Assembly: GCA_024103355.1 (NCBI GenBank)
Contig: JAGFIU010000051.1
Coordinates: forward strand, 19,548-83,547
From: Bacteroidota bacterium
Lineage (GTDB): Bacteria > Bacteroidota > Bacteroidia > NS11-12g > UBA955
DNA: 64,000 nt
Direction of reading: 5' to 3'
The notes under the pieces were generated by a model, which did no database searches, had not been told where the DNA came from, and was given only the letters and a program-made list of their open reading frames with translations. Each line of letters opens with the position of its first letter. The stretch's first letter is position 1. A program made the position numbers and the translations under genes. Below are positions 1 to 60,823 of the stretch, one piece after another.

Positions 1-1
1 C

Positions 2-187
2 TATGATTGGAAGAAAATGAATAACAACGGAAGTCCTTTGGTATGGGGGCATCCGCAAGGCCCCACACTTACAAGAGTGATTATAGAAGCACTTGAAGAA
101 GCAGTAGAATTGGGCGGAGGATATGTTTTGGTTTTTGGATGTGCAGCCGGAGATGTTGGTATAGCGTCAATTTTTAAAGTAAACTGA
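2..187 (+). CDS. 3'-terminal fragment (C-terminal ~62 aa) of a thiolase (acetyl-CoA C-acyltransferase); the gene starts upstream of the window
   Basis: Frame-2 translation ...NGSPLVWGHPQGPTLTRVIIEALEEAVELGGGYVLVFGCAAGDVGIASIFKV* resembles the conserved thiolase C-terminus (GHPxGxTG...CxGGGxGxA). The stop is at 185-187, 11 bp before the next gene. Confidence 0.5.
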   Translation, partial: YDWKKMNNNGSPLVWGHPQGPTLTRVIIEALEEAVELGGGYVLVFGCAAGDVGIASIFKVN

Positions 188-197
188 GAGAAGAGAT

Positions 198-2288: not shown

Positions 2289-2291
2289 AGA

Positions 2292-3353: not shown

Positions 3354-3357
3354 ACAA

Positions 3358-4473: not shown

Positions 4474-4475
4474 AA

Positions 4476-5248
4476 TGGAAAAGATTAAACTTACATATTC
4501 TCACAATCATTCTGTTGCCAATATCCTCTTGAATGATGGCAAAGGCAATGTGCTGGATAATATAATGATGTTGGAATTGTTGGATTGTTTCAAAGAATTT
4601 GCAGAAAATAAGCACCTCAAACTAATTACATTTCAAGGTGAAGGAAAGCATTTTTCTTTTGGGGCAAGCGTAGAAGAACATACACAGGAATTTGCCGAAA
4701 TGATGCTCAAAACTTTTCACCGACTATTTATGGTGTTGAAGGATATGGCAATTCCTACAATGGCAAAAATTTCGGGTCAATGTTTGGGAGGCGGAATGGA
4801 GTTAGCAATCTTATGTAATTTCTTGTTTGCAGATAAAACAGCAAAACTCGGTCAACCCGAAATTGTATTGGGAGTGTTTCCGCCACCGGCTTCCATTATT
4901 CTCCCGGAAAAAATAGGGCTTTCCCGTGCAGAAGAGTTGTTGTTGAGCGGTAGGAGTATTGATGCAGAGGAAGCATTGAGAATTGGATTGGTGCACAAGG
5001 TATTTGAAGATAAAGAAGCATTGAACCTGGGTACAGAAGAATGGATTGAAAAAAATATTATTCCTAAAAGCGCATCCTCACTTCGATTTGGTGTGAGAGC
5101 AGCCAGGGCAAAATTCAACCATGTGTTGAGTAATTTTTTACCACAACTTGAACAAATGTATCTAAGCCAGTTGATGAATACCAAAGATGCAAATGAAGGT
5201 ATTACTTCATTTTTGGAAAAACGTCAGCCGGCATGGGTAAACGAATAA
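4476..5248 (+). CDS. Enoyl-CoA hydratase/isomerase family protein (257 aa). Candidate dienoyl-CoA hydratase (Dch)-like
   Basis: Crotonase motifs (KLITFQGEGKHFSFGASVEEH…KISGQCLGGGMELAILCNFLFAD). I prefer the ATG at 4476, 3 bp after the upstream stop, over the ORF-track start at 4361, which would overlap the preceding gene by 113 bp. Confidence 0.75.
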
Positions 5249-5261
5249 AGATGAAAAGAAA

Positions 5262-7088
5262 ATGATAGTAGAAAGTGCAGTCATAAAATTTGCAGGAGAT
5301 TCCGGAGACGGGATACAGTTAGCAGGCACCTTGTTTACTGAAAACGTAGCATTGATGGGCAATGCTATCGCTACATTTCCTGATTTTCCTTCTGAAATCA
5401 GAGCACCACAAGGAACTGTTGCCGGTGTTTCCGGTTTTCAGATTCATTTTGGTACCTCGGGGGTACATAGTCCCGGAGATGCACCGGATGTGTTGGTAGC
5501 AATGAACCCGGCTGCTCTCAAAGCCAATATCCACGCTCTCAAGGCCAATTGTTTGATTATTGTGGATGCTGATTCTTTTGGAAAAAGAGATATTGAAAAA
5601 GCAGGGTTTGACAGTAATCCGTTGGAGGATGGAACATTAGAGGGATATCAGGTGATTGCCGCTCCTATTACTTCCTTAACAAAAGCTTCGGTTGCAGAAT
5701 TGGGATTGGACAATAAATCTGCTGACCGTTGTAAAAATATGTTCACGCTTGGGTTGGTGTTATGGTTATTTAATGAATCCTTGGATAGCACACTTCGATA
5801 TTTTGAACAAAAATTTAAAAAGAATCCCGTCATTGAAGCTGCCAATAAAAAGGCGTTGAATGCAGGATTTAACTATGGGTTAAATACAGAAGCGATTAAA
5901 ACTTCATTTACCGTATTACCCGCACCGAAGGCATCCGGAACTTATCGTAACATGACAGGAAACCAGGCAACCGCATGGGGATTTATGGCAGCTGCAGAAA
6001 AGGCCGGAAGACCCTTGTTTTTAGGCTCTTATCCCATTACTCCGGCAACCGATATTATGCAAGAGCTTACCAAGCACAAATGGTCAGGAGCAAGGGTTTT
6101 TCAGGCGGAGGATGAAATAGCCGGAATCTGTTCTGCCATTGGAGCTGCTTTTGCCGGAAATATTGCTGTTACTACTACATCAGGCCCCGGAATGGCTCTT
6201 AAAACAGAAGCCATCGGTTTGGCTGTGATGACAGAATTGCCGATTGTGATTGTGGATGTACAAAGAGGAGGCCCCAGTACAGGATTGCCTACCAAAACTG
6301 AACAAAGTGATTTGATGCAAGCGATCTGGGGAAGAAATGGAGAAAGTCCCGTGGTTGTGCTTTCTGCCGGAACTCCTTCTGACTGTTTTGATTGGGCTTA
6401 TGAAGCAGTGCGCATTGCCGTTGAACACATGACTCCGGTTTTTTTATTGACTGAAAGTTATCTTGGCAACGGAGCAGAACCTTGGAAAATTAAGAAATTG
6501 GCGGATATGCCTGCAATTACTCCCAGAACCTTAGCAAATCCGGATCCTGCATGGAAACCTTATAGCCGTGATGAAGAAAAATTAGCGCGTTATTGGGTAA
6601 TACCAGGCACTGCCGCTATGCAACACCGTATTGGAGGTTTAGAAAAAGATGAATGTACAGGATGCGTGTCCACCAATCCGCAAAACCATGAGAAAATGGT
6701 AAAAATTCGCAAGGAGAAAATTAAAAAAATTGAAAACTACATACCGCTACAACGATACAAAGGCAAAGATGCCAAAAAGTTATTGGTAGTAGGCTGGGGA
6801 GGACAATTTGGTATATTGATGGGAGCCGTAAAAGAATTGCAGGAAGAAGGGAAAGACTTAGCCTATGCCCATTTTAATTATATCAACCCCTTACCAAAAA
6901 ATACGGCAGAGGTGTTTTCTAAATTTGAAAAGATAATTGTTTGTGAATTGAACGATGGTCAATTAGCCAAATACTTGAGGGCGGTGATGCCTCAGTTTCA
7001 GTATGAGCAATACAACAAGATACAGGGACTTCCATTTACCGTAAAAGAACTAAAAGAAAAATTTACACAACTACTTTCTGAATTTTAA
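5262..7088 (+). CDS. korA: 2-oxoacid:ferredoxin oxidoreductase, alpha subunit (KorA-type)
   Basis: 608 aa. N-terminus GDSGDGIQLAG and the overall layout are typical of 2-oxoglutarate/2-oxoacid:ferredoxin oxidoreductase alpha subunits. The beta subunit follows 2 bp later. Confidence 0.85.
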   Translation: MIVESAVIKFAGDSGDGIQLAGTLFTENVALMGNAIATFPDFPSEIRAPQGTVAGVSGFQIHFGTSGVHSPGDAPDVLVAMNPAALKANIHALKANCLIIVDADSFGKRDIEKAGFDSNPLEDGTLEGYQVIAAPITSLTKASVAELGLDNKSADRCKNMFTLGLVLWLFNESLDSTLRYFEQKFKKNPVIEAANKKALNAGFNYGLNTEAIKTSFTVLPAPKASGTYRNMTGNQATAWGFMAAAEKAGRPLFLGSYPITPATDIMQELTKHKWSGARVFQAEDEIAGICSAIGAAFAGNIAVTTTSGPGMALKTEAIGLAVMTELPIVIVDVQRGGPSTGLPTKTEQSDLMQAIWGRNGESPVVVLSAGTPSDCFDWAYEAVRIAVEHMTPVFLLTESYLGNGAEPWKIKKLADMPAITPRTLANPDPAWKPYSRDEEKLARYWVIPGTAAMQHRIGGLEKDECTGCVSTNPQNHEKMVKIRKEKIKKIENYIPLQRYKGKDAKKLLVVGWGGQFGILMGAVKELQEEGKDLAYAHFNYINPLPKNTAEVFSKFEKIIVCELNDGQLAKYLRAVMPQFQYEQYNKIQGLPFTVKELKEKFTQLLSEF

Positions 7089-7089
7089 T

Positions 7090-8109
7090 ATGGATACATT
7101 ACAATGCTTATATAAACCGAAAGAATACGCAAGCGACCAAGAAGTAAAATGGTGTCCCGGTTGTGGTGATTATGCCATTATCAATGCTGTGCAGAAAGCC
7201 TTTTCAGAACTGAATCTGAAGAAAGAAGAAGTTGCTATTATTTCCGGTATTGGTTGTTCATCAAGATTCCCCTATTATATGGATACTTATGGTTTCCATA
7301 CTATACACGGAAGGCCTGCTGCCATTGCAACGGGTGTCAAACTTGCCAACCCTGATTTGAGTGTTTGGGTAGTAAGTGGCGATGGTGATTCGCTGGCAAT
7401 TGGAGGTAATCATTTTATCCATTTGATAAGAAGAAATATTAACCTGAATCTTTTGCTCTTTAACAATGAAATCTATGGTTTGACCAAAGGACAACATTCT
7501 CCGACAACAAAGAAAGGATTGCATACCAAATCAGCTCCTTATGGCACAATTGAAAATCCGTTCAATGTGGGAGAATTGGTATTGGGAGCACAAGGACAGT
7601 TTTTTGCAAGAGTCCCTGATACGGATGTAAAGTTGATGACAAGTGTTTTCATAGAAGCCGAAAAACATCAGGGAACTTCCATTGTTGAAGTTCTTCAAAA
7701 CTGTGTCATTTTTAATGATGAGACCCATGCTTCTGTTACATCTAAAGAAAATAAAATAAAGAACCAATTGATTTTGGAACATGGAAAGCCTATGCTGTTT
7801 GGAGAAAATAATAGTAAAGGCTTGCGTTTAAACGGTTTGGAATTAGAGGTAGTTACCATTGGCGAGAATGGAATCACCGAAAGTGACATTTTGGTGCACG
7901 ATGCTCATTGTAAATCGCCTGTTTTACATCAGATGCTAATTCAGATGAAACTTCCTGACTATCCGGTAGCAATGGGGTTAATAAGGGATGTGGAATCATC
8001 TGTTTATGATAAGGAATTTCATGGTCAGATAAAGGCGGGGAAGGCAGAAGGAAAGATAAAATCAGTTGACGAATTATTTTTTAGTGGAAATACTTTTCAA
8101 GTAAATTAA
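7090..8109 (+). CDS. korB: 2-oxoacid:ferredoxin oxidoreductase, beta subunit (TPP-binding)
   Basis: WCPGCGDYAI…GIGCSSRF…GDGD TPP-binding motifs. 339 aa. Confidence 0.85.
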   Translation: MDTLQCLYKPKEYASDQEVKWCPGCGDYAIINAVQKAFSELNLKKEEVAIISGIGCSSRFPYYMDTYGFHTIHGRPAAIATGVKLANPDLSVWVVSGDGDSLAIGGNHFIHLIRRNINLNLLLFNNEIYGLTKGQHSPTTKKGLHTKSAPYGTIENPFNVGELVLGAQGQFFARVPDTDVKLMTSVFIEAEKHQGTSIVEVLQNCVIFNDETHASVTSKENKIKNQLILEHGKPMLFGENNSKGLRLNGLELEVVTIGENGITESDILVHDAHCKSPVLHQMLIQMKLPDYPVAMGLIRDVESSVYDKEFHGQIKAGKAEGKIKSVDELFFSGNTFQVN

Positions 8110-8122
8110 TAAACAATATACT

Positions 8123-8470
8123 ATGGCTATCAAAATCACTGAAGACTGTATCAATTGCGGAGCCTGTGAGCCCGAATGTCCAAACAAAGCAATTTTTGCC
8201 AATGGAGAACCCTGGACTATGGCAGACGGTACAAACATTACCTCAGACTACACTTTAATGAACGGGAATACCATTGACCCTTTTGCTGAGCAAGAACCGG
8301 TTTCAACTGAATATTACTACATTGTTACCGATAAATGCACAGAATGTGTTGGTTTTCATGATGAACCTCAATGCGCCTCTGTGTGTCCTGTAGATTGCTG
8401 TTTGCCTGATGAAAATCACAGAGAGTCTAGAGAAGAGTTGGAAGCAAAACAAAAGAGATTACATGAATAA
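8123..8470 (+). CDS. fdx: 2x[4Fe-4S] ferredoxin, Allochromatium (Alvin)-type motif with a long inter-cluster insertion
   Basis: Cluster I is CINCGACEPECP (Cx2Cx2Cx3CP). Cluster II is CTECVGFHDEPQCASVCP (Cx2Cx8Cx3CP). About 50 aa separate the two motifs. 115 aa. Confidence 0.85.
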   Translation: MAIKITEDCINCGACEPECPNKAIFANGEPWTMADGTNITSDYTLMNGNTIDPFAEQEPVSTEYYYIVTDKCTECVGFHDEPQCASVCPVDCCLPDENHRESREELEAKQKRLHE

Positions 8471-9094
8471 ATGAGAAGTTTTCTGCAATATATGAATGAA
8501 GCAGCAGCCATTATTTTGGCCGGTGGGGAGTCCAAAAGAATGGGGTTTCCTAAACTCCTATTGCCCTTTGATAGTGGCAAAACCTTTATTGAGCAGATTG
8601 CAGATACTTATGCTAAGGTTATTCAAGGCGAGGTTATTTTGGTTATTAATGCAGAGGTATTGAAAGCTCACAGTACGTTCTTTTCTCAGTTTAAGGATTT
8701 GATAATAGTCCCAAATCATAATCCTGACCTTGGCAGAACATACTCTATCCAGCTTGGATTGGCGAAGACACAGAAAAGAAAAATTTTTATTCAAAATACT
8801 GATAATCCTTTTGTGAGTGAGAAATCGCTTTTGTCAATGCTTGAATTGGCTTCTAAAGATGCTTATGTTTCTCCGAGAAGTAACGGTAAAGGAGGACATC
8901 CGATTTTAATATGCGGAAATGTAATTGATAAGATTGTCAAGGCAGATTATGATAAAAGTTTAAAGAGCATTCTTGCTGACTCTATGCGTATAGATTGGAT
9001 AACAGATGATGCCTCTATGCTTGTGAATATTGATACTCGCGATGTTTATAAACAGTATTTTCCTAATCTAAATACGGAATTTAACAATGCATAA
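8471..9094 (+). CDS. mocA: Molybdenum cofactor cytidylyltransferase / MobA-like NTP-transferase (MocA-type)
   Basis: N-terminal AIILAGGESKRMGFPKLLLPF nucleotidyltransferase motif. Its start codon overlaps the ferredoxin stop. It sits beside xdhC and an XDH-family enzyme. Confidence 0.7.
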   Translation: MRSFLQYMNEAAAIILAGGESKRMGFPKLLLPFDSGKTFIEQIADTYAKVIQGEVILVINAEVLKAHSTFFSQFKDLIIVPNHNPDLGRTYSIQLGLAKTQKRKIFIQNTDNPFVSEKSLLSMLELASKDAYVSPRSNGKGGHPILICGNVIDKIVKADYDKSLKSILADSMRIDWITDDASMLVNIDTRDVYKQYFPNLNTEFNNA

Positions 9095-9898
9095 ATGACA
9101 AGCCCTAAATTACCATATCATCCCAACAAACTCAAATCTGCACTCTGCATTATTGTGGATACCAGAGGCTCTACACCGCGTAAAGCCGGTACTAAAATGC
9201 ATGTATTTGAAAACGGGAAAATTGAGGGAACTATTGGTGGAGGTGCTTTAGAAAAAAAAGTAATTGAAGATGCTCTTGCACAAATAAAAGTGGGCAACCC
9301 CAGATTGTTTGAACACCAGCTTCTCCAACAACATAATATGTGCTGTGGCGGTATGGTAAAGGTATATATAGAACCGGAAGCACAGAAAAATCATTTGATA
9401 ATTTTTGGTGCAGGGCATGTTGGGCAGGAATTAGCAAACCAGGCGGTGAAAGCGGAGTTTGATGTAACTGTGTTTGATGACAGACCCGAATATATACAGC
9501 AAATCACCAACGAAACTATCGAGGCTCAATGCCTTGATTTTTCAGATGCATTAAAGCAAATCTCTTTTGGTGAAAATACTTATATCGCTATTCTTACTTA
9601 CCGGCACGATATTGACCGGGCTTTGCTTCGGTATTGTTTGAGAAAAGAAAGAGCCTATCTCGGTTTTATTGGTAGTCAACGAAAAATATTGGTTACACGA
9701 AAAATGATGTTACAGGAAGGAATAGCAACAGAAGAAGAATTGAACAAAGTAGATATGCCTATTGGTTTGAACATTGGTGCTGAATCACCTTTTGAAATAG
9801 CGGTTAGCATTATGGCAAAACTGATAGAAGTGAAAAACCAAGAGCAGGTTAATACAATTCAACAAATAAAAGACATAGAACAATGCATAAAAGAATAG
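9095..9898 (+). CDS. xdhC: XdhC/CoxI-family MoCo insertion/maturation accessory protein
   Basis: 267 aa with a Rossmann-like C-terminal half (LIIFGAGHVGQELA). Starts directly after the mocA stop. Typical neighbour of XDH-family structural genes. Confidence 0.7.
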   Translation: MTSPKLPYHPNKLKSALCIIVDTRGSTPRKAGTKMHVFENGKIEGTIGGGALEKKVIEDALAQIKVGNPRLFEHQLLQQHNMCCGGMVKVYIEPEAQKNHLIIFGAGHVGQELANQAVKAEFDVTVFDDRPEYIQQITNETIEAQCLDFSDALKQISFGENTYIAILTYRHDIDRALLRYCLRKERAYLGFIGSQRKILVTRKMMLQEGIATEEELNKVDMPIGLNIGAESPFEIAVSIMAKLIEVKNQEQVNTIQQIKDIEQCIKE

Positions 9899-10605
9899 CC
9901 GTCATAACAGGAGCTGCCAAGGGTATTGGAAAATCTATTGCGCAAAGGTTCGCACGTGATGGCTATCAATGTGTATTGGTGGATGTGGATGAAGTACAAG
10001 GGCAGCAATTGGCAAAGGAATTGGGTAAGGATGCGATTTTCCGTTCATGTGATATCAGTGATGAGTCAGATGTTAAAAAGTTGTTTGAAAGCCTTGAGAG
10101 AATAGATGTTTTGATAAACAATGCCGGGATAATTCGTGATAATATGATTTGGAAAATGCCGGTGGAAGATTTTGATAGGGTTGCAAATATCAACCTGAAA
10201 GGAACATGGATGATGTGTCGCGAAGCGGCTTTGAGGATGAAGGAACAAAGAAGCGGAAGAATAGTAAACATTGCTTCTAGAGCGTGGTTAGGAAATCCTG
10301 GACAGTCTAACTATGCTGCTTCAAAAGCGGGTGTGGTAAGCCTGACAAGGGTTCTGGCTTTGGAATTGGGGCGATACGGCATATTGGTTAATGCCATTGC
10401 TCCCGGTTTGATTGATACCCCTTTGGCACAAGGGTTAACGGATGAAGTTAGAGAAAAGCTCATTCAGGCACAACCGACTAAAAGCATGGGAAAACCGGAG
10501 GATGTGGCACATGCAGCCGCTTTTCTGTGTGATGAAAATACCTTGTTTATTACCGGTCAAACCTTGTATGTAGATGGCGGAAAAAGTATTGGAGCAGGAC
10601 TGTGA
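9883..10605 (+). CDS. Short-chain dehydrogenase/reductase (FabG-like 3-oxoacyl reductase family)
   Basis: TGAAKGIGKSIA Rossmann motif, NNAG, and the YxxxK catalytic dyad (YAASKAG). 240 aa. Overlaps xdhC by 16 bp. Confidence 0.85.
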   Translation: MHKRIAVITGAAKGIGKSIAQRFARDGYQCVLVDVDEVQGQQLAKELGKDAIFRSCDISDESDVKKLFESLERIDVLINNAGIIRDNMIWKMPVEDFDRVANINLKGTWMMCREAALRMKEQRSGRIVNIASRAWLGNPGQSNYAASKAGVVSLTRVLALELGRYGILVNAIAPGLIDTPLAQGLTDEVREKLIQAQPTKSMGKPEDVAHAAAFLCDENTLFITGQTLYVDGGKSIGAGL

Positions 10606-10633
10606 AAGTATTGAAAGATGAAAAATAAATGCA

Positions 10634-13426
10634 ATGAGAAAGATAAGTTTAAAAATCAACAACAAGCCTTATACCTTTCTGGCAAACGATTCAGAGACTT
10701 TGTCTCATGTAATTCGTGAAAGGGCAGGGCTTACGGGAACAAAGGTCGGGTGCAGCCAGGGCAGTTGCGGAGCTTGTACAGTCATTGCAGACGGAGAACC
10801 GGTATTGAGTTGCATTACTCCTGCATTTCGATTTGACAATGCTGAAATTCAAACAATAGAAGGGTTATCCAATCAGGGTACTCCGGAACTTTTACAGGAA
10901 TTGTTTGTGCGCAAAGGAGCTATCCAATGTGGTTTTTGCACACCCGGAATGGTATTGACCGCTAAGGATTTTGTAAACAAAAATCCCAATGCAACCAAAC
11001 AGGATATCAAAGAAGCACTATCCGGGAATTTATGCCGCTGTACCGGTTATAAAAAGATTATTGAAGCTGTTACCGAATATACCGAACTCCACAAACAAGG
11101 TGTTGAGCACTTGCCGCCTGTTGAAGAAAGCAGCAAAATCATTGGTGTCAGCCGACCTTATATCGAAGCAGAAAAAAAGGTTTTAGGCAAAGCCCTTTAT
11201 GCCGATGATTTACAATTCAGAAATTTGTTATACTGCAAGTTTCTGCGAAGCACTCATGCTCATGCATTGATTGAAGATATTGATATTTCAGAAGCGCAAA
11301 AAATGGAAGGAGTGGCTTATGTAGCTGTAGGAAAAGAGTTGCCTGAAAAATTCGGAGTCTTGCCTGTTTCGCATGATGAAACGGCTATGGCTATCGAAAA
11401 GACACGCTATTTTGGAGAAATAGTTGCAGCCGTAGCGGCTGAGAGTTTTGAAATTGCTGAAGCTGCATGTAAAAAAATCAAAGTTAAATACAAACCGCTC
11501 AAAACTTATTTTAGCATTGAAGAATCCATTCATGACGTAGGCGACAATGCCAAGATTCACGAACACTGCAAGTTCAACAATAATATTCACAAAAAAGCAG
11601 AATTGCGTTTTGGAAACCAGGAAGAAGGATTTAATAATTCTGATATCATTTCTGAAATGGAATTTGATGTGGAAGGAGTTTCTCATGCTTTTACTGAGCC
11701 TCATTCGGCAACAGCTTATTGGGATGAAAACGGATTGACCATTCACACGGCTACACAAGTTCCTCATTATCTTCACAGAGCTTTAGCCAAAGTAATGCAA
11801 GTTCCATTGAGCAGGGTGCGTGTTATCAAACCTTATGTAGGCGGTGGTTTTGGAGGAAAGAGTGATCCCTTTCCACATGAGATGATTATCTCTCACATTG
11901 CCCGAAAGACAGGCAGGCCTGTGCGCTCCACTTTTACAAGAGAAGAAGTTTTTCTTAGCAATCACGGCAGGCATCCATCCAAATTCAAAATGAAAATGGG
12001 AGCCGACAGCAATGGAATGTTGAAAGTATTGGATGCTGATGTGGCAATAGATGGCGGTGCTTACGGCAGCTTTGGCGTGGTTACTTCATACTATAACGGG
12101 GTGCTATTACAGGCACCTTATGAAATTAAAGACTTTGGATTTAGAACGTATCGTGTTTATACCAACAAGCCTCAATGTGGTGCTATGCGTGGGCACGGAG
12201 CTGTTAATACCCGTTTTGCTGCTGAAACGCTCATAGATGATATTGCCCATAGGTTGAACATCGATCCGTGTGAAATGAGGTTGAAGAATTTTTATAAAGA
12301 AAATGTAATTACTATCGGGCAGTTCAGAATTACATCCAATGGCAGTAGAATGGCTTTGCAGCAAGTAATGGAACGCTCCGGTTGGAAAGACAAGCGTGCG
12401 AACTTGCCGGCAGGACGAGGAATTGGGGTGGGATGTGGTTTCTTCATCAGCGGAAGCGCCTTGCCGATTATCTGGAATGAATATCCTCAAACAGTGGTAC
12501 ATCTGAAATTGGATTTTGACGGAAGAATTTTGATTTCTTCCGGTGCCAGTGATATAGGCCAAGGAAGCGATACCATGCTGGCAATGGTGGTAGCAGAAAC
12601 GATGGGTGTTGATATGCAAAAAGTTTTTGTACTTGCTGCCGATACTTTGCTAACTCCGGTGGATTTAGGAAGTTATTCCAGCCGGGTTACATTCATGTGT
12701 GGAAATGCTGCCAAACAAGCGGCTGAAAAACTTAAATCTGAAATATTAGAAGCGGTTGCCAAAAGAAAAGCAATAGCAATAGAAGAATTGTATATTGAAA
12801 ACAGTCGGGTACGCTCCAATGATAAACAAGTGGATTTAGAATGGTTGGAAGCGGTGGATATGGCTACAGCTCATCGCGGAGCTTTGACGGTTAGCGGTAA
12901 TTATATTTCACCAAAATTAGGAGGCGATTTTAAAGGAGCAGGTGCAGGGTTAAGCCCTTCATACAGTTTTGGAGCGTGTATAGCAGAAGTAAATGTAGAT
13001 AAACAAACGGGGCAGGTAGAATTACTCCATGTCTGGGGTGCACACGACTGCGGAAAAGCACTGAATCCATTAGCAGTTGAGGGACAGTTGGAAGGTTCTT
13101 GGCACATGGGAATAGGACAGGCAGTCAGTGAAGAGATGAAATACTTTAACGGGTTGCTCTTAAATAACAATTTCTGTGATTACAAAATCCCTACCACCTT
13201 AGACACTCCCGAAATAGATACTAATATCATAGAATCCGGAGATCCGGAAGGACCCTTTGGGGCTAAAGAATGTGGCGAGGGAGCTTTACATCCTGTTATT
13301 CCGGCTATAGCCAATGCCATTTTTAATGCCTGTGGAGTGCGCATTACCAAACTGCCCATCAAAGCAGACGAAGTACTGTCACAAATAAAAGCAAATATGC
13401 AAGTGAAGGCGGAAGCAATAAACTAA
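10634..13426 (+). CDS. Xanthine-dehydrogenase-family molybdenum enzyme with the [2Fe-2S] small subunit fused N-terminal to the MoCo-binding large subunit (HcrC+HcrA / CoxS+CoxL-like, 930 aa)
   Basis: N-terminal ~160 aa carries GCSQGSCGACTV, CGFCTPG and CRCTGY, the two [2Fe-2S] motifs. The downstream region has the a/b-hammerhead and MoCo-binding domains, including GGGFGGK. The C-terminal part has GAKECGEGA in place of the usual GxGE catalytic-Glu loop. Confidence 0.85.
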   Translation: MRKISLKINNKPYTFLANDSETLSHVIRERAGLTGTKVGCSQGSCGACTVIADGEPVLSCITPAFRFDNAEIQTIEGLSNQGTPELLQELFVRKGAIQCGFCTPGMVLTAKDFVNKNPNATKQDIKEALSGNLCRCTGYKKIIEAVTEYTELHKQGVEHLPPVEESSKIIGVSRPYIEAEKKVLGKALYADDLQFRNLLYCKFLRSTHAHALIEDIDISEAQKMEGVAYVAVGKELPEKFGVLPVSHDETAMAIEKTRYFGEIVAAVAAESFEIAEAACKKIKVKYKPLKTYFSIEESIHDVGDNAKIHEHCKFNNNIHKKAELRFGNQEEGFNNSDIISEMEFDVEGVSHAFTEPHSATAYWDENGLTIHTATQVPHYLHRALAKVMQVPLSRVRVIKPYVGGGFGGKSDPFPHEMIISHIARKTGRPVRSTFTREEVFLSNHGRHPSKFKMKMGADSNGMLKVLDADVAIDGGAYGSFGVVTSYYNGVLLQAPYEIKDFGFRTYRVYTNKPQCGAMRGHGAVNTRFAAETLIDDIAHRLNIDPCEMRLKNFYKENVITIGQFRITSNGSRMALQQVMERSGWKDKRANLPAGRGIGVGCGFFISGSALPIIWNEYPQTVVHLKLDFDGRILISSGASDIGQGSDTMLAMVVAETMGVDMQKVFVLAADTLLTPVDLGSYSSRVTFMCGNAAKQAAEKLKSEILEAVAKRKAIAIEELYIENSRVRSNDKQVDLEWLEAVDMATAHRGALTVSGNYISPKLGGDFKGAGAGLSPSYSFGACIAEVNVDKQTGQVELLHVWGAHDCGKALNPLAVEGQLEGSWHMGIGQAVSEEMKYFNGLLLNNNFCDYKIPTTLDTPEIDTNIIESGDPEGPFGAKECGEGALHPVIPAIANAIFNACGVRITKLPIKADEVLSQIKANMQVKAEAIN

Positions 13427-27464: not shown

Positions 27465-27539
<75 letters not shown>

Positions 27540-56337: not shown

Positions 56338-56444
56338 GAGGACAAAAGTAGGCTGAATTTGATTGAAGAAAAATCAAATCATAATTTAGCTACAAGCATT
56401 GAAAATCTAACAGTATAACAACATTTGATAGATAATTTGTATAT

Positions 56445-57158
56445 TTGACCCATTATAATTTTCAGCAAAAGCATAATATGACAATAGCGGAGTTTACAAA
56501 GAAATTTAGAAAAATCAAAGAACAAGGTTTTGTTCAAACAATGAGAAAAGGACCGACAGGAATTGGTTACACTTTGGAAACTTTACTTGGAATTAAAGAA
56601 AATAACGAAGCTCACCCAGACGTTGATGGTGCTGAATTAAAAGCACATAGGACAAAAGGAAATAGTATGATTACTTTGTTTACTTTCAACAACAAAGTTT
56701 GGAAAATGCCACCATTGGATGCAGTTAAAAAATATGGTAGTTTAGACAAAGACGGCAGACAAGGACTTTATTATACAATGTCGTTGAAACCTAATAGTGC
56801 AGGACTTTTCCTTGATGTGCAGAAAACAGAAATTTCCGTTAGACATATTTCAGGCGAAGTAGTTGCAACTTGGCAACTACAAACTTTGGCTGATAGGTTT
56901 ATGCAAAAATTACCCGCATTACTATTTGTTTCAGCATTTACAGAAGAAAGAGACGGACTTGAATATTTTCATTTTTATAGAGCCCAACTGATGAAAGGAA
57001 CTTCACCAGAATTATTGGCTGACCAATTTAGAGAAGAAAATATTTTGGTTGATTTGCGTTTGCACGACAAAGGAACAATGGCAAGAAATCACGGAACAGG
57101 TTTTAGAACTTTTGAAGACAAATTACCTTTACTTTTTCAAAGTATTACAGATTTATGA
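56445..57158 (+). CDS. Type II restriction endonuclease, MvaI/BcnI family (putative)
   Basis: GPTGIGYTLETLLGIKENNEAHPDVDGAELKAHRTKGNSMITLF matches the N-terminal catalytic-lobe pattern I recall for BcnI/MvaI (G-x-G-x-x-L-E…N…PD…ELK..R…TLF). 237 aa. The stop overlaps the MTase start (ATGA). Confidence 0.55.
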   Translation: MTHYNFQQKHNMTIAEFTKKFRKIKEQGFVQTMRKGPTGIGYTLETLLGIKENNEAHPDVDGAELKAHRTKGNSMITLFTFNNKVWKMPPLDAVKKYGSLDKDGRQGLYYTMSLKPNSAGLFLDVQKTEISVRHISGEVVATWQLQTLADRFMQKLPALLFVSAFTEERDGLEYFHFYRAQLMKGTSPELLADQFREENILVDLRLHDKGTMARNHGTGFRTFEDKLPLLFQSITDL

Positions 57159-58390
57159 AATATCCGATAGTTAGAAATACAAAATACGATTATGTAGGAC
57201 AATCTTATGCTTCAAGTTTTCCAAACTTGCATAAATATCCTGCAACAATGTTGCCTCAAATTGGGATAGACATTTTAAAAGAGTTCAATATTTCTAATGG
57301 AAAATTACTTGACCCTTATTGTGGTTCAGGTTCTTCATTTGCAAGTGCTTTGGAATGTGGCTTAACAGATTTATATGGTTTTGATATTAACCCTTTGGCT
57401 GTTTTAATTTCAAAAGTTAAGTTCACTAAAATTTCAATTAATCAACTACTTGACACAAAGAAAAGTTTTAGAGATAATATTTTTGAATTTCTTAAAAACG
57501 AAGAAAACTTAAAAACTTTAAAAACGACAAACATAACAAATATTGAGTTTTGGTTTTCACAACAAGTAATTGAAAACTTAAATTTGCTAAAACATTTTAT
57601 CTACGAAATTAAAGATGAAAATATTCGTAATTTCTTTTTAGTTCCATTTTCTGAAACAGTTAGAGAATGTTCATACACAAGAAACAATGAATTCAAACTC
57701 TACCGTATGAAATCGGAAGACATTTTAAATTTCAATCCCGATGTAGTTGGTGTTTACTTCAAAAAATTAGAAGATACATTATTTAATTATATAAACTTCT
57801 ATTTTCCAAAACTTGAAAAAGATGTTTCTGTTGATATTCAATATTCTAAATTTCAACCAACGAAAAATTATTTTGACGTTGTATTGACAAGTCCACCTTA
57901 TGGCGACAGCAGAACGACTGTTGCTTATGGACAATTTTCTACACTTTCAAATGAATGGACAGGAATTGACTATGCTAGAAAAATAGATGGAATGTTGATG
58001 GGTGGTACAAAAGCAAAAACAAATATTTCAAAAGGTATAATTGCAGACTACATATCACAAATAAACAAAGAAGATAACAAAAGAGCATTAGAAGTTTCCT
58101 CTTTTTACAACGACTTGGATAGTTCAATTAAGAAAGTAGCAGACAGCACAAAAAAAGGTGGAAAAAGTATTTATGTAGTTGGAAATAGAACAGTAAAGAA
58201 TATTCAGTTACCAACAGACCAGTTTATTGCAGAGAAATTTGAAGAAAATGGATTTAAACATCTAAAAACTTACGAAAGATTATTGAGTAGTAAAGCAATG
58301 CCTTCAAAAAATTCACCAACGAACAAGACAGGAAAAACAGTAAATACGATGCTTTATGAATATATTGTAATATGTGAAAAGATTAAATAG
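57155..58390 (+). CDS. DNA methyltransferase (N4-cytosine or N6-adenine, alpha-class motif order)
   Basis: LDPYCGSGSSF (motif I, FxGxG) at aa ~50 and LTSPPYGD (motif IV, SPPY) at aa ~245. 411 aa. Confidence 0.75.
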   Translation: MKYPIVRNTKYDYVGQSYASSFPNLHKYPATMLPQIGIDILKEFNISNGKLLDPYCGSGSSFASALECGLTDLYGFDINPLAVLISKVKFTKISINQLLDTKKSFRDNIFEFLKNEENLKTLKTTNITNIEFWFSQQVIENLNLLKHFIYEIKDENIRNFFLVPFSETVRECSYTRNNEFKLYRMKSEDILNFNPDVVGVYFKKLEDTLFNYINFYFPKLEKDVSVDIQYSKFQPTKNYFDVVLTSPPYGDSRTTVAYGQFSTLSNEWTGIDYARKIDGMLMGGTKAKTNISKGIIADYISQINKEDNKRALEVSSFYNDLDSSIKKVADSTKKGGKSIYVVGNRTVKNIQLPTDQFIAEKFEENGFKHLKTYERLLSSKAMPSKNSPTNKTGKTVNTMLYEYIVICEKIK

Positions 58391-58715
58391 TGAAACCCTG
58401 TAGCTAACAAATTAATTGACATAAAGCAGATTAAGCTCTATAATTGAAATTTTGTATAAAATTCATAAGTTTTAATTCAAATCAGTTTTTGTGATAAAAA
58501 TACTTTATATTCAATTTGCAACTAAAAGTAAAAAGAATCAGTGTTGGAAATACTGTCCTAAGAAATAATAAAGCAAAAGCATAATGAGAATGGTCATCGG
58601 AACAAAGAAAAGGATGCTGCAACAACCACCCAAGGTTTTTTCATGTGGGTGATAGAAATGCTCTTCATTGTGTTTAGGGGGGACGAATTCTTCTTTTTCC
58701 TCTGACATAAAAAAA

Positions 58716-58860
58716 GGCAAGCAAAGAATCGCACCGCTACAACCGTCTGCCCTTGCTCAGTTCCCTGCCTGGGGGAGTGAGACAGGAGCTGGTCGTTCCC
58801 GCTTGCCGCTGCAAAAGTATGATTTCGATTCGCTCTTTCCAAGTCGCTTTTAACCTTTTT
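58716..58860. other. GC-rich, self-complementary non-coding element (candidate structured small RNA or leader) upstream of the multiheme cytochrome gene
   Basis: About 60% GC in a ~38% GC context. GGCAAGC (58716-22) pairs with GCTTGCC (58801-07). CAGTTCC (58758-64) pairs with GGAGCTG (58785-91). Only short overlapping ORFs on both strands. Confidence 0.3.
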
Positions 58861-58885
58861 TACTTAATCTTGCAGTAGCTTTAAA

Positions 58886-60823
58886 ATGATGCTTAAAAAT
58901 AAAGCAAAATGGTTGGTTTTATTACTCCTTTTAGGCTGGAGCGTACTGATAATTCAGTGCGGTAAAGGCAATAAACAAACTCATAAAACCGCCCAAGATG
59001 TATTTGTCAGTCCTTATCTTAATCTGAATGACACCGTAAAATATGTGGGAAGTCAAGTTTGCAGGGGTTGCCATGAGGATAAATTTGAGAGTTTTTCTCA
59101 TACTGAAATGGGAATGTCATTTGGAAAAGCCACAAAACAAAAAAGTAGCAGTTTTGGACACGGAAATGGCTATGCTTATGATACCATAAAAGACTTGCAC
59201 TATATCTCGTTTTGGGAAGGAGGTGAATTTTTTATCAAAGAATTCAGGCTGTATAATGGCGACACTGTTTATCAAAGAAAAGAACATATTGATTATATCA
59301 TTGGTTCAGGACACCATACCAATTCTCATATCATACAGAGAAACGGATTCCTATTTCAGGCACCCATGACTTTTTATACCCAAAGTGGTTTGTGGGATTT
59401 ACCACCCGGATTTAGAGAAAATAATCCGAGGTTTGAAAGAAGAATAGAATCCGAATGTATGACATGCCACAATGCTTATCCGAAGCAGGATCCTCTCTCT
59501 GAGCATAGGTTTTTTGAAATACCTGAAGGGATAGATTGTGAACGATGCCACGGACCGGGTGAATTGCATGTTGCACAAAGACTCTCCGGCAAACTGTTGA
59601 AAGAACCCGGGACTTTGGATTCTACAATTGTAAATCCAAGAAGATTGCCCTACAATCTACAGACCGATGTTTGTCAACGCTGTCATTTGCAGGGAAATAA
59701 TGTTTTGAAACCTGATAAATCGTTTTATGATTTCAAACCCGGAATGCCTTTGAGCAGTATCTTTACTGTGTTTATGCCTGACTATAGCGAACAAGAAGAA
59801 TTCAGAATGAGTTCTCATACAGAAAGATTGCAAATGAGCCAATGTTTTATTCAAAGTAACAAAAACAGCACGGAAGCCTATAATCCTAATTTGAATTTTA
59901 CATGTATAACCTGCCACGATCCTCATGTCAGTGTTCGTTCAATGGGTGACGAGCATTTTAATCTAACTTGTCAGTCTTGTCATACCGCGCCAAAAACGGT
60001 ATGTTCGGAAAATCCTGAAAAAATTAAGCTACAAAACAATAATTGTGTTTCATGTCACATGCCCCGAAGCGGAACAGTGGATATTCCCCACGTTACAGTT
60101 CATGACCATTATATCAGAAAACATTATGACAGAATCGGAAACGAAGGGCAGGGTGAGCTTATGGGTTTAAGAGCCATAAATACAAAGCAGCCTGACCTGA
60201 TGAGCACATTTGCAGGCTATATTTCTTACTATGAAAAATTTGAACATAACCCTTTCTATTTACAGAAAGCCAAAGAGCTATATACTCAGATTGGAAATTC
60301 ACAGTATGCACTGCAACTAAAAGTCTATTATCATTATACATCAAATGAATTTACTCAGATTGTCAATTTGTCAAAGAAATTAAATCAAGATTCTATCACT
60401 GATGCATGGACTTATTATAGAATTGCCAAAGCATTTGAGAATACTCATCAAAAGTCTCGCGCATTAGAGTGGATGAAAGAAGCTGTGAGAATCAAAACTG
60501 ATTTCCCTCCATTTTGGGATGCATTAATTTCACTCAAGATTGACATGAAACAATTTAATAAAGCACAGTCAGATTTGAATTTTCTCCTTAAACTTGACCC
60601 TCGTGATGATATTGCAATGGGTTTACAAGCCAAACTTTATTATCTGACATCTCAAGTAAAAGAAGCCAATCAGACTGCTTTGCGCACACTAAAACTCAAT
60701 CCCGATAATGCAATAGCTTTGGAGATATTGATTAAGATAGCTGATAGTGTCGGTACAAAACCGGCTCAATATGATTATTGGAAGCAAAGGTTGAAAATAT
60801 TAGGTTATAGTCAATCTATTTAA
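58886..60823 (+). CDS. Seven-heme c-type cytochrome lipoprotein with C-terminal TPR repeats
   Basis: Seven CxxCH motifs (CRGCH, CMTCH, CERCH, CQRCH, CITCH, CQSCH, CVSCH). Lipoprotein-like signal …LIIQCGKG. The C-terminal ~200 aa are TPR-like. Confidence 0.85.
   Translation: MMLKNKAKWLVLLLLLGWSVLIIQCGKGNKQTHKTAQDVFVSPYLNLNDTVKYVGSQVCRGCHEDKFESFSHTEMGMSFGKATKQKSSSFGHGNGYAYDTIKDLHYISFWEGGEFFIKEFRLYNGDTVYQRKEHIDYIIGSGHHTNSHIIQRNGFLFQAPMTFYTQSGLWDLPPGFRENNPRFERRIESECMTCHNAYPKQDPLSEHRFFEIPEGIDCERCHGPGELHVAQRLSGKLLKEPGTLDSTIVNPRRLPYNLQTDVCQRCHLQGNNVLKPDKSFYDFKPGMPLSSIFTVFMPDYSEQEEFRMSSHTERLQMSQCFIQSNKNSTEAYNPNLNFTCITCHDPHVSVRSMGDEHFNLTCQSCHTAPKTVCSENPEKIKLQNNNCVSCHMPRSGTVDIPHVTVHDHYIRKHYDRIGNEGQGELMGLRAINTKQPDLMSTFAGYISYYEKFEHNPFYLQKAKELYTQIGNSQYALQLKVYYHYTSNEFTQIVNLSKKLNQDSITDAWTYYRIAKAFENTHQKSRALEWMKEAVRIKTDFPPFWDALISLKIDMKQFNKAQSDLNFLLKLDPRDDIAMGLQAKLYYLTSQVKEANQTALRTLKLNPDNAIALEILIKIADSVGTKPAQYDYWKQRLKILGYSQSI

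What the first reader, a model, noticed from the sequence alone, without database searches (positions are those of the whole stretch)
56445..58390. Compact MvaI/BcnI-like Type II restriction-modification system
A 237-aa protein shows the N-terminal catalytic-lobe pattern of the monomeric MutH-like REases BcnI/MvaI (TGIGYTLETLLG…PD…ELKAHR…ITLF). It is translationally coupled (ATGA overlap) to a 411-aa alpha-class DNA MTase with FxGxG and SPPY motifs.

MvaI and BcnI cut CCWGG and CCSGG, so this pair probably targets a related pentanucleotide and methylates N4-C. This would be a mobile defence cassette inserted between metabolic genes.
Basis: partly seen in the sequence, partly recalled or inferred. 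Interest (0 to 1): 0.55.

Follow-up and report, generated by a model that had tools for sequence, protein, structure and literature searches.

The report
MvaI-type CCWGG restriction-modification cassette
This is an intact two-gene bacterial defence module, a DNA-cutting enzyme plus the methylase that protects the host's own DNA, closely modelled on the well-studied MvaI system; it is ordinary in kind but unusually widely shared between unrelated bacteria.

Summary
Two overlapping genes on the + strand encode an MvaI/BcnI-family restriction endonuclease and a DNA amino-methyltransferase. One correction: the endonuclease starts at ATG 56478 and is 226 aa, not 237 aa from TTG 56445.

The endonuclease matches Pfam PF15515 over its full length (146.6 bits, cutoff 25). 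It keeps the MvaI catalytic residues, and its model superposes on the MvaI-DNA complex (TM 0.80).

The methyltransferase is 40% identical over almost its whole length to the methylase next to a 98%-identical R.MvaI orthologue. It has motif I before SPPY.

The most likely target is CCWGG, with N4 methylation of the inner cytosine. The MvaI base-contact residues are kept and the two BcnI histidines that read the central C:G pair are absent. CCWGG is about 4-fold depleted in the window while CCSGG is not. This specificity is inferred, not shown.

The same ~2.0 kb unit (56386-58409) recurs at 70-94% nucleotide identity in unrelated contexts across many phyla. It is the lowest-GC stretch of the window and evolves under purifying selection. 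No empty site or mobility gene was found.

Verdict: a new member of a known kind, already named as this family in public databases. Interest is low to moderate.

The parts
56386..58409 (+). Whole transferable unit of about 2.0 kb: upstream control region, REase gene and MTase gene.
   Evidence: Nucleotide homology to cassettes in unrelated contexts begins and ends here. L007 is 93.9% identical over window 56386-58409. L006 is 90% identical over 56417-58390. More than 30 further loci are 69-81% identical over about 56455-58390. The flanks do not align. GC is 0.305, the second lowest of 310 2-kb windows (mean 0.370, sd 0.025).
56386..56477 (+). Conserved upstream region with a putative Bacteroidota-type promoter; the -7 box TATATTTG lies at 56434-56441.
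   Evidence: This stretch is conserved with L007 and L006. A TAnnTTTG box lies 24-39 nt upstream of the ATG in the cassettes from Bacteroidota-type loci. Promoter function is inferred, not shown.
56478..57158 (+). Restriction endonuclease gene, 226 aa, MvaI/BcnI family. It is predicted to be monomeric and to cut CC^WGG.
   Evidence: Pfam PF15515 at 146.6 bits. PDB sequence hits to R.MvaI at 2.4e-14 and R.BcnI at 2.4e-5. Catalytic residues E34/D48/E53/K55 are invariant. The AF2 model has pLDDT 91.7, and Foldseek places it on 2oaa with TM 0.80. dN/dS is 0.05-0.11.
57155..57158 (+). ATGA start/stop overlap between the two genes, suggesting translational coupling.
   Evidence: Seen directly in the sequence. 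In many related loci the REase match ends and the MTase match begins at the same coordinate, the pattern this overlap gives; those junction sequences were not read. Coupling itself is inferred.
57155..58390 (+). DNA methyltransferase gene, 411 aa, M.MvaI-type. It is predicted to methylate N4 of cytosine. Motif I is at aa 53-59 and motif IV (SPPY) at aa 246-249.
   Evidence: 40% identity, E 2e-85, over aa 26-409 to the MTase adjacent to a 98%-identical R.MvaI orthologue. PADLOC MTase_II PDLC03322 matches at E 3.5e-104. Conserved motifs are shown. dN/dS is 0.06-0.21.

Best explanation
This is an intact, probably active Type IIP restriction-modification system of the MvaI type.

[quoted passage not shown] It most likely binds unmethylated CCWGG as a monomer. 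[quoted passage not shown] Incoming unmethylated phage or plasmid DNA is destroyed.

**Expression.** The two genes appear to form one operon, R then M, with an ATGA overlap. They follow a short conserved upstream region with a Bacteroidota-type -7 box, and there is no controller (C) protein.

**Origin.** The ~2.0 kb unit was acquired horizontally. It belongs to a very widely exchanged clade of cassettes.

**What is shown:** the genes, family membership, catalytic and recognition residues, the fold, R-M linkage across genomes, mobility of the unit and purifying selection.

**What is inferred:** CCWGG specificity, m4C chemistry, monomeric sequential nicking, operon structure and promoter, and current activity.
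For: **Family and fold**
- Pfam PF15515 matches over the full length at 146.6 bits.
- phmmer against PDB gives R.MvaI at 2.4e-14 and R.BcnI at 2.4e-5.
- The AF2 model has pLDDT 91.7. Its best Foldseek hit is the MvaI-DNA complex 2oaa (E 1.6e-17, TM 0.80), followed by BcnI, with MutH much weaker.

**Active site**
- MvaI E36/D50/E55/K57 (PMC1874612) align with E34/D48/E53/K55, which are invariant in 46 sequences.

**Specificity**
- MvaI base-contact residues R25, T29, N45, T68, T102, D207, R209, H225 and R230 are conserved. D207, R209, H225 and R230 are invariant across both clades.
- BcnI reads its central C:G pair with H77 and H219 (PMC3089477). These positions are Thr and Gly here, and Thr and Ala in MvaI.
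- The REBASE-derived PADLOC models rank as follows: a 405-aa model matched over its C-terminal half (5e-22), then a 246-aa model (9e-15), with a 238-aa model far behind (6e-5). By their lengths these fit UbaLAI, MvaI and BcnI, but the models carry no enzyme names.
- In the window, CCWGG occurs 16 times against 68 expected, while CCSGG occurs 65 times against 32. In 17-64 kb the CCWGG count is 5 against about 44.
- In the flanks of 51 cassette-bearing loci the CCWGG O/E is 0.37-0.40, and 37 of 38 loci fall below expectation. In 79 control loci it is 0.95-1.24, with 37 of 70 below.

**Methyltransferase**
- 40% identity, E 2e-85, to the MTase beside a 98%-identical R.MvaI orthologue.
- SPPY is invariant. 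PMC2532716 describes it as characteristic of N4-cytosine MTases.

**Linkage**
- An MTase of this family lies beside the REase in about 60 of 67 genome loci. The same pairing was seen on the two plasmids whose annotation named the neighbour.

**Function retained**
- dN/dS is 0.05-0.11 for the REase and 0.06-0.21 for the MTase.
Against: - No biochemical or methylome data exist for this cassette or, as far as I could find, for any member of its close clade.
- The REase is only 29% identical to MvaI.
- Three MvaI contacts differ: N28 to P, H223 to R, and D224 to N, which is a main-chain contact. Y213 is deleted. A changed or relaxed specificity, for example CCNGG, is therefore not excluded.
- CCWGG depletion is not specific proof. 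The nearest relative, L079, shows no cassette in the 13.8 kb seen yet has 1 CCWGG against 14.5 expected, so the depletion may predate this cassette.
- Cassette hosts are also low in CCSGG, GGWCC and GGSCC relative to controls.
- The methylase in L077 is presumed, not proven, to be M.MvaI.
- The MTase falls just below the Pfam N6_N4_Mtase cutoff, at 24.8 against 26.7 bits.
- Its structural model is only moderately confident, at pLDDT 72.9.
- An R-before-M operon without a C protein leaves unexplained how methylation gets ahead of cleavage in a new host.
Confidence: 0.8

Rival explanations
1. The system has the same architecture but a different target: CCSGG as in BcnI, relaxed CCNGG, or another pentanucleotide.
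For: The family contains both W- and S-specific enzymes, and the REase is only 25-29% identical to either. Three MvaI base contacts differ. Pooled cassette hosts are also somewhat CCSGG-poor, with O/E 0.53-0.75 against 1.1-1.4 in controls.
Against: BcnI's H77 and H219 are replaced by small residues, as in MvaI. MvaI's R209, which reads the central T, is conserved here but is not Arg in BcnI. CCSGG is not depleted in this genome (65 observed, 32 to 70 expected), whereas CCWGG is depleted 4- to 9-fold. The PADLOC model of BcnI's length scores far lower (6e-5) than the two best models (5e-22, 9e-15). The MTase is 40% identical to the presumed CCWGG-specific M.MvaI. CCSGG contains CCGG, so its pooled depletion can reflect CCGG systems.
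Confidence: 0.12
2. The cassette is a decaying or silent remnant. The endonuclease is inactive or not expressed, and the methylase acts as an orphan.
For: Endonuclease pseudogenes are common among relatives. L006/L042 is split into two ORFs, L048 carries W75*, and L051, L056, L059, L064 and L067-L071 are fragmented. There are very few CCWGG sites left to cut in this genome.
Against: Both window genes are full length, with every catalytic and motif residue intact. Proteins 100% identical occur on contigs from five independent sequencing runs. dN/dS for the REase is 0.05-0.11. A promoter-like box is conserved upstream.
Confidence: 0.06
3. The methyltransferase modifies adenine N6 or an RNA, as some database labels suggest, and is not the cognate partner of the endonuclease.
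For: JGI labels many homologues 'RsmD' or 'Trm11'. Weak Pfam and PDB-profile hits go to RNA methyltransferase motif-I regions. Some plasmid homologues are annotated 'DNA adenine methylase'.
Against: Those hits cover only the generic AdoMet-binding segment, aa 24-105. The full-length match is to Type II DNA MTase models at E 3.5e-104 and to the presumed M.MvaI. CCWGG contains only a single central A:T pair, and the catalytic motif is SPPY, not D/NPPY. The gene sits beside an MvaI/BcnI REase in dozens of genomes from many phyla.
Confidence: 0.02

Closest known systems
MvaI R-M system of Kocuria (Micrococcus) varians RFL19: R.MvaI (PDB 2OA9/2OAA) and M.MvaI; CC^WGG, Cm4CWGG
   Same: - Same REase family and two-lobe fold (TM 0.80).
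- Identical catalytic tetrad.
- 9 of about 12 base-contacting residues are conserved.
- The MTase is 40% identical over its full length to the presumed M.MvaI and has the same motif order, I then SPPY.
   Different: - The REase is only 29% identical and shorter (226 vs 249 aa). It lacks the loop carrying Y213 and differs at N28P, H223R and D224N.
- Gene organisation differs. Here R then M are co-directional with an ATGA overlap and no extra ORF. In the MvaI-like loci L077 and L078 the MTase is divergent, and a 110-122-aa ORF precedes and overlaps the REase gene.
- The MTase is about 40 aa shorter.
BcnI R-M system of Brevibacillus centrosporus: R.BcnI (PDB 2ODH/2ODI); CC^SGG
   Same: Same Pfam family, fold (TM 0.73-0.78) and catalytic motif, and presumably the same monomeric sequential-nicking mechanism.
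   Different: The sequence match is much weaker (E 2.4e-5, 25% identity). The central-pair readers H77 and H219 are absent. The Arg equivalent to MvaI R209 is present here but not in BcnI. CCSGG is not avoided in the host.
UbaLAI (CC^WGG), a monomeric Type IIE enzyme with an MvaI-like C-terminal catalytic domain (PMC5766183)
   Same: The best PADLOC REase hit is a 405-aa model, matched over positions 172-389 (E 5e-22). This fits the published UbaLAI architecture, whose catalytic domain spans residues 165-405.
   Different: The window protein has no N-terminal EcoRII-N/B3-like effector domain. It is a single-domain enzyme like MvaI. Equating the PADLOC model with UbaLAI is my inference from length and coordinates, because the model carries no enzyme name.
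MutH (GATC mismatch-repair nickase)
   Same: It shares the catalytic-lobe fold and its monomeric, asymmetric binding mode.
   Different: Structural similarity is weak (E 0.05, TM 0.44). The recognition lobe differs, and MutH is not paired with a methyltransferase gene.

Membership tests
MvaI/BcnI restriction endonuclease family (Pfam PF15515) | Full-length match to the family profile above the curated threshold | tested here: met
   146.6 bits against a cutoff of 25, E 1.5e-42, profile positions 2-227 of 227. NCBI names close homologues 'MvaI/BcnI family restriction endonuclease'.
MvaI/BcnI restriction endonuclease family (Pfam PF15515) | PD-(D/E)XK active site of the form E...D-x4-E-x-K (MvaI E36/D50/E55/K57) | tested here: met
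   E34, D48, E53 and K55 align with the MvaI residues. They are invariant in 17- and 46-sequence alignments.
MvaI/BcnI restriction endonuclease family (Pfam PF15515) | Two-lobe MutH-like fold with a catalytic lobe and a recognition lobe | tested here: met
   AF2 model with pLDDT 91.7. Foldseek gives 2oaa at E 1.6e-17 and TM 0.80, and 2odi at TM 0.78. This is a predicted, not a solved, structure.
MvaI/BcnI restriction endonuclease family (Pfam PF15515) | Acts as a monomer that nicks the two strands in turn, cutting CC^NGG-type sites to leave 1-nt 5' overhangs | not testable with these tools
   Requires gel filtration and cleavage kinetics. Inferred from family membership only (PMC1874612, PMC3089477).
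MvaI sub-type (CCWGG specificity) | MvaI base-contact residues present: R25, N28, T29, N45, T68, T102, D207, R209, Y213, H223, D224 (main chain), H225, R230 | tested here: inconclusive
   Nine are conserved: R25, T29, N45, T68, T102, D207, R209, H225 and R230. Changed are N28 to P, H223 to R (Arg can still read G) and D224 to N (a main-chain contact). Y213, which makes a contact outside the site, is deleted. This favours CCWGG but does not prove it.
BcnI sub-type (CCSGG specificity) | Two histidines (H77, H219) that read the central C:G pair | tested here: not met
   The aligned residues are T69 and G208 in 226-aa numbering. MvaI has T and A at these positions.
M.MvaI-type DNA (cytosine-N4) methyltransferase | Full-length sequence homology to M.MvaI | tested here: met
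   40% identity, E 2e-85, over aa 26-409 to the 451-aa MTase adjacent to a 98%-identical R.MvaI orthologue on L077. Caveat: that protein is presumed to be the M.MvaI orthologue from its position.
M.MvaI-type DNA (cytosine-N4) methyltransferase | AdoMet-binding motif I (FxGxG) and catalytic motif IV SPPY | tested here: met
   D53-P-Y-C-G-S-G59 and S246-P-P-Y249. G57, G59 and SPPY are invariant in 15 sequences down to 30% identity.
Alpha-class amino-methyltransferases (motif order X-I-II... TRD ...IV-VIII) | Motif I precedes motif IV, with a large insert between them | tested here: met
   Motif I lies at aa 53-59 and motif IV at aa 246-249. The AF2 model has an all-helical insert at about aa 80-219 between strand 2 and strand 3. 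Whether this insert is the DNA-recognition domain, and how the literature formally classes M.MvaI, were not verified.
Pfam N6_N4_Mtase (PF01555) | Score above the gathering threshold | tested here: not met
   24.8 bits against a cutoff of 26.7. Only the motif-IV end of this beta-order model aligns, as expected for a circularly permuted relative. A PDB profile search finds beta-class MTases only through their C-terminal motif-I segment.
M.MvaI-type DNA (cytosine-N4) methyltransferase | Product is N4-methylcytosine at the inner C of CCWGG | not testable with these tools
   Needs a methylome or in vitro assay. Inferred from SPPY and from homology.
Type II restriction-modification system | REase and cognate MTase genes are adjacent, and this linkage is conserved across genomes | tested here: met
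   An MTase of this family lies next to the REase in about 60 of 67 genome loci. It is R then M, with the MTase match starting where the REase match ends or within about 10 nt, in the close clade; it is M then R or convergent in distant members. The same pairing occurs on plasmids.
Type II restriction-modification system | Controller (C) protein regulating establishment, present in only some systems | tested here: not met
   There is no HTH ORF between 56338 and 56477 or inside the unit. Distant relatives on Lactococcus and Parabacteroides plasmids do carry one. This feature is not required for membership.

The most novel reading that the evidence does not exclude
The close clade of this cassette (at least 70% REase identity) may be an exceptionally promiscuous, minimal selfish element. 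It is a ~2-kb R-M unit with no integrase, transposase or terminal repeats. It has nevertheless entered Bacteroidota, Ignavibacteriota, Spirochaetota, Elusimicrobiota, Campylobacterota, Planctomycetota, Pseudomonadota, Fibrobacterota and CPR bacteria. Its upstream expression signals were replaced in each host. Its spread may be biased toward, or may itself drive, genomes poor in CCWGG. A weaker variant of this reading is that the clade's changed contacts (P26, R203, N204, and loss of the Y213 loop) give it a specificity or methylation sensitivity different from MvaI.
Probability: 0.15. Interest if true: 0.5.

Novelty: new member of a known kind. Interest (0 to 1): 0.22.

Why it matters
For this genome, the finding identifies a likely barrier to transformation and phage infection, and it predicts a testable m4C motif, Cm4CWGG. 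Anyone trying to manipulate this organism genetically would want to pre-methylate incoming DNA or remove CCWGG sites from it.

More generally, the clade is a clean natural example of how far a two-gene restriction-modification unit can travel. Proteins 70-96% identical occur across many phyla, host-specific promoters and ribosome-binding sites are grafted on, and endonuclease genes are repeatedly found inactivated while the methylase survives.

The methylase family has no solved structure. A structure would show a circularly permuted relative of the beta-class N4/N6 enzymes.

None of this overturns current understanding.

Tried and rejected
1. **Flanking repeat.** A 14-nt exact direct repeat, AGCAAAAGCATAAT, at 56464 and 58572 looked like a possible target-site duplication. 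I rejected it. The first copy lies inside the conserved cassette and the second outside it, within a small ORF that is conserved in a relative lacking the cassette.
2. **Empty-site search.** I searched metagenome contigs with the downstream cytochrome gene. The nearest relative, L079 (75% aa), shares only window 58537-60792 and has an unrelated gene upstream. No empty site could be reconstructed.
3. **Maximal-order Markov word statistics on the window alone.** CCWGG does not stand out (O/E 0.64), because its own 4-mers are depleted too. Lower-order models and a control set were needed.
4. **Pooled site depletion across hosts as proof of specificity.** This is only partly discriminating, because the hosts are poor in several GC-rich palindromes.
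6. **Literature on the formal class of M.MvaI.** Bujnicki 2002 and Morgan 1998 were not held in the library.
7. **NCBIfam.** It has no model for the REase and gave nothing useful for the MTase.
8. **Terminator scan.** No intrinsic terminator was found downstream of the MTase.
9. **A dN/dS value for the L048 REase.** It came out anomalous (0.69). I traced this to an in-frame stop codon that broke the codon alignment and discarded the value.
Full report

ORF listing shows 56445..57158 (+), 237 aa from TTG, and 57155..58390 (+), 411 aa from ATG. The junction reads ...GATTTATGAAATAT..., so the methylase ATG (57155-57157) overlaps the endonuclease TGA (57156-57158) by ATGA.

The one correction concerns the start codon.
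- Nearly all of about 1,700 homologues are 226 aa and cover 95% of the 237-aa query.
- Gene calls on five public contigs that encode a 100%-identical methylase start the endonuclease 33 nt further in, wherever that start lies on the contig.
- The TTG at 56445 follows directly after TATATTTG (56434-56441), a Bacteroidota-type -7 promoter box.

The gene is therefore 56478..57158, 226 aa.

**2. The endonuclease**

- **Family.** Pfam PF15515 (MvaI_BcnI) matches at E 1.5e-42 and 146.6 bits against a cutoff of 25, end to end on the profile.
- **Solved relatives.** Only two solved proteins match by sequence: R.MvaI (2.4e-14) and R.BcnI (2.4e-5).
- **Fold.** An AlphaFold2 model built on 46 sequences is confident (pLDDT 91.7). 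Its best structural match is the MvaI-DNA complex 2OAA (E 1.6e-17, TM 0.80). BcnI follows (TM 0.73-0.78), and MutH is far behind.
- **Active site.** The MvaI paper names E36, D50, E55 and K57 (PMC1874612). These align with E34, D48, E53 and K55 here, which are invariant in both alignments.

**3. Which sequence does it cut?**

Four lines of evidence point to CCWGG rather than CCSGG.

(i) *Recognition residues.* Nine MvaI residues that contact bases are conserved: R25, T29, N45, T68, T102, D207, R209, H225 and R230. D207, R209, H225 and R230 are invariant across the MvaI clade and the window clade.
- R209 is the residue that reads the central thymine. BcnI has no Arg at this position.
- BcnI reads its central C:G pair with H77 and H219, and replacing them with small residues lets T:A in (PMC3089477). 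The window protein has Thr and Gly at these positions, and MvaI has Thr and Ala.
- The differences from MvaI are N28 to P, H223 to R (still a guanine reader), D224 to N (a main-chain contact) and loss of the loop with Y213, which contacts a base outside the site.

(ii) *REBASE-derived models.* The PADLOC profiles rank as follows:
- a 405-aa model matched over its C-terminal half, at 5e-22; I read this as the UbaLAI architecture, CC^WGG;
- a 246-aa model of MvaI's length, at 9e-15;
- a 238-aa model of BcnI's length, at 6e-5.

These size-based identifications are my inference, because the models carry no enzyme names.

(iii) *The partner methylase* is M.MvaI-like (section 4).

(iv) *Site counts.*
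- In the window, CCWGG occurs 16 times against 68 expected from dinucleotide-preserving shuffles. None of the 100 shuffles fell below 16. CCSGG occurs 65 times against 32.
- Under an order-2 Markov model the O/E values are 0.25 for CCWGG and 0.93 for CCSGG.
- Outside the first 17 kb there are 5 CCWGG sites against about 44 expected. One of the five lies in the conserved core of the SRP RNA.
- In the flanks of 51 cassette-bearing loci from other genomes, CCWGG O/E is 0.37-0.40, and 37 of 38 loci fall below expectation.
- In 79 control loci chosen through an unrelated gene it is 0.95-1.24, with 37 of 70 below expectation.

*Limits of the site-count evidence.*
- Cassette hosts are also poorer than controls in CCSGG, GGWCC and GGSCC. 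CCWGG is only the most extreme case: maximal-order O/E is 0.45 against 0.93 for CCWGG, and 0.75 against 1.12 for CCSGG.
- The closest relative, L079, shows no cassette in the 13.8 kb available but is equally CCWGG-poor, at 1 against 14.5. The depletion is therefore a lineage trait that may predate this copy.

I treat the counts as supportive, not decisive.

**4. The methyltransferase**

Standard libraries see it poorly.
- Pfam N6_N4_Mtase scores 24.8 bits, just under its 26.7 cutoff, and aligns only the SPPY end.
- NCBIfam has nothing useful.
- PDB phmmer finds nothing.
- A 15-sequence profile hits beta-class DNA methylases (TTHA0409 and a rotifer cytosine-N4 methylase) and tRNA G-N2 methylases. 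These hits cover only the segment HxYPA...DPFxGSG.

That segment sits at the C-terminus in beta-class enzymes and at the N-terminus here. SPPY follows 190 residues later. The protein is therefore a circularly permuted relative of the beta class, with alpha-like motif order.

To test homology with M.MvaI I proceeded as follows.
- I rebuilt R.MvaI residues 15-239 from the PDB alignment and searched with them. This found a 98%-identical 249-aa protein.
- I fetched its contig, L077, where a 451-aa methylase is transcribed divergently next to it.
- The window methylase is 40% identical to that protein over aa 26-409 (E 2e-85). This is closer than the two endonucleases are to each other, at 29%.
- PADLOC's MTase_II model PDLC03322 matches over its full length at E 3.5e-104.

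M.MvaI methylates N4 of the inner cytosine of CCWGG (PMC1874612). SPPY is described as characteristic of N4-cytosine enzymes (PMC2532716). On this basis I infer the same reaction here.

The AF2 model is moderate (pLDDT 72.9). It shows a Rossmann-type core with an all-helical insert at about aa 80-219. No solved structure resembles it closely.

**5. Are the two genes a cognate pair, and are they alive?**

- **Linkage.** Among 67 genome loci recovered with the endonuclease, about 60 have a methylase of this family immediately adjacent. In the close clade the order is R then M. The methylase match begins at the coordinate where the endonuclease match ends, the pattern the window's ATGA overlap gives, or a few nt beyond it. 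In distant members, with 50-63% REase identity and 30-43% MTase identity, the order is M then R or convergent.
- **Plasmids.** Lactococcus and Parabacteroides plasmid relatives pair this methylase family with an annotated MvaI/BcnI endonuclease and add an HTH controller protein. A Geobacillus plasmid relative has an unannotated 236-aa ORF convergent beside its methylase, which I did not test.
- **Selection.** dN/dS between the window genes and six relatives is 0.05-0.11 for R and 0.06-0.21 for M.
- **Decay elsewhere.** Endonuclease decay with an intact methylase is frequent. L006/L042 is split into two ORFs, L048 carries W75*, and several others are fragmented. This is the usual life cycle of such systems.
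- **State here.** The window copy has no defect.

**6. Is it mobile?**

- **Extent of the unit.** Nucleotide homology to cassettes in unrelated contexts is confined to window 56386-58409. L007 is 93.9% identical, L006 is 90%, and more than 30 others are 69-81%. Homology begins about 90 nt before the ATG and stops within 20 nt of the stop codon.
- **Composition.** The unit has GC 0.305, the second lowest of 310 2-kb windows (mean 0.370, sd 0.025). Its GC3 is 0.20-0.23, against 0.30-0.33 in the neighbouring genes.
- **Host range.** Hosts include Bacteroidota, Ignavibacteriota, Chlorobiota, Spirochaetota, Elusimicrobiota, Campylobacterota, Planctomycetota, Pseudomonadota, Fibrobacterota, CPR lineages, Thermotogota and an archaeon.
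- **Evidence the hosts are real.** The upstream signals look host-specific, which argues against binning artefacts. Bacteroidota-type loci carry a TAnnTTTG box, and Treponema loci carry GGAGG ribosome-binding sites.
- **What is missing.** No integrase, transposase, terminal repeat or target duplication was found. No empty site could be recovered. How the unit moves therefore remains unknown.

**7. Context**

Upstream, on the opposite strand, lie a short-chain dehydrogenase and an M1 peptidase. Downstream lie a 60-aa conserved ORF, the SRP RNA gene (Rfam RF04183, 68.3 bits), a multihaem cytochrome and recG. The host is probably a Bacteroidota bacterium. This is an inference from T9SS-tail proteins nearby, the SRP RNA type and the promoter box.

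**8. Verdict**

This is an intact MvaI-type Type IIP restriction-modification cassette. It most probably recognises CCWGG and protects the host with m4C, and it was horizontally acquired.

The cassette is a new member of a known kind, and public databases already label close homologues with the family name.

Its only unusual aspect is how widely and how faithfully this 2-kb unit has been exchanged.

Noticed in passing
window 1-64000 (also L079, L001): The pentanucleotide CGNCG is completely absent from the 64-kb window: 0 observed against 35-39 expected under order-1 to order-3 Markov models, although the CG dinucleotide occurs 1561 times. It is also absent from the relative L079 (0 vs 8), but not from other cassette hosts or from the control loci (O/E about 0.9-1.5). 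This is an absolute, lineage-specific avoidance that I cannot explain. It may reflect another restriction system.
   Followed up: partly
window 1-64000: Several other short palindromes are strongly depleted, which suggests the genome carries, or has carried, several other restriction systems. Observed against order-1 expected: GATC 26 vs about 200, GGCC 29 vs about 123, GTSAC 19 vs 62. CCGG is over-represented.
   Followed up: partly
window 1-12000 versus 17001-64000: CCWGG depletion is uneven. There are 10 sites in the first 12 kb (O/E about 0.6) and only 5 in 17-64 kb (O/E about 0.11). The first 13 kb is a one-strand catabolic cluster: enoyl-CoA hydratases, a Zn-ADH, a 2-oxoacid:ferredoxin oxidoreductase, MobA, XdhC and a molybdopterin dehydrogenase. 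That cluster still shares the GATC, GGCC, GTSAC and CGNCG avoidance.
   Followed up: partly
window 58711-58815 (-): SRP RNA gene (Rfam RF04183, Bacteroidales small SRP, 68.3 bits, E 7.6e-13), 320 nt downstream of the methylase stop. It is 99% identical over 125 nt to the copy in relative L079. It contains the only CCWGG site in the last 23 kb of the window.
   Followed up: yes
window 58538-58720 (-): A 60-aa ORF with a hydrophobic C-terminal half, starting immediately beside the 3' end of the SRP RNA. It is conserved in L079 at 74% aa identity over 47 residues, with DNA 86% identical over 58537-58845. It may be a real small membrane-protein gene. No function was assigned.
   Followed up: partly
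L006/L042 (Leptonemataceae MAG chromosome OZ253574.1), L048, L051, L056, L059, L064, L067-L071: Related cassettes often have a broken endonuclease gene (split ORFs, or an in-frame stop W75* in L048) beside an intact methylase. These appear to be orphan methylases in the making. In L006 the cassette sits next to a second R-M pair (an NspV-like REase with an MmeI-type MTase), with a phage-type integrase gene about 7 kb upstream.
   Followed up: partly
L007-L070, 90 nt upstream of the REase start: The coding region of the cassette is conserved across phyla, but the upstream signals appear host-specific. Bacteroidota-type loci carry a TAnnTTTG box at -24 to -39. Treponema loci carry TTGACA-like boxes and GGAGG ribosome-binding sites.
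   Followed up: partly
L075 (Lactococcus lactis plasmid NZ_CP065985.1) and L076 (Parabacteroides distasonis NZ_OY725768.1): Distant relatives of the system have a helix-turn-helix controller gene next to the endonuclease. In Lactococcus the methylase is a 728-aa protein about twice the usual length, possibly a fusion of two methylases.
   Followed up: no
window 56464-56477 and 58572-58585: A 14-nt exact direct repeat, AGCAAAAGCATAAT, brackets most of the cassette. I judged it a chance match, because one copy lies inside the conserved unit and the other lies in host sequence conserved in L079.
   Followed up: yes
window 27466-27539 (-): A tRNA gene (Rfam RF00005, 69.2 bits). Apart from the SRP RNA it is the only RNA family found in the window at gathering threshold.
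   Followed up: no
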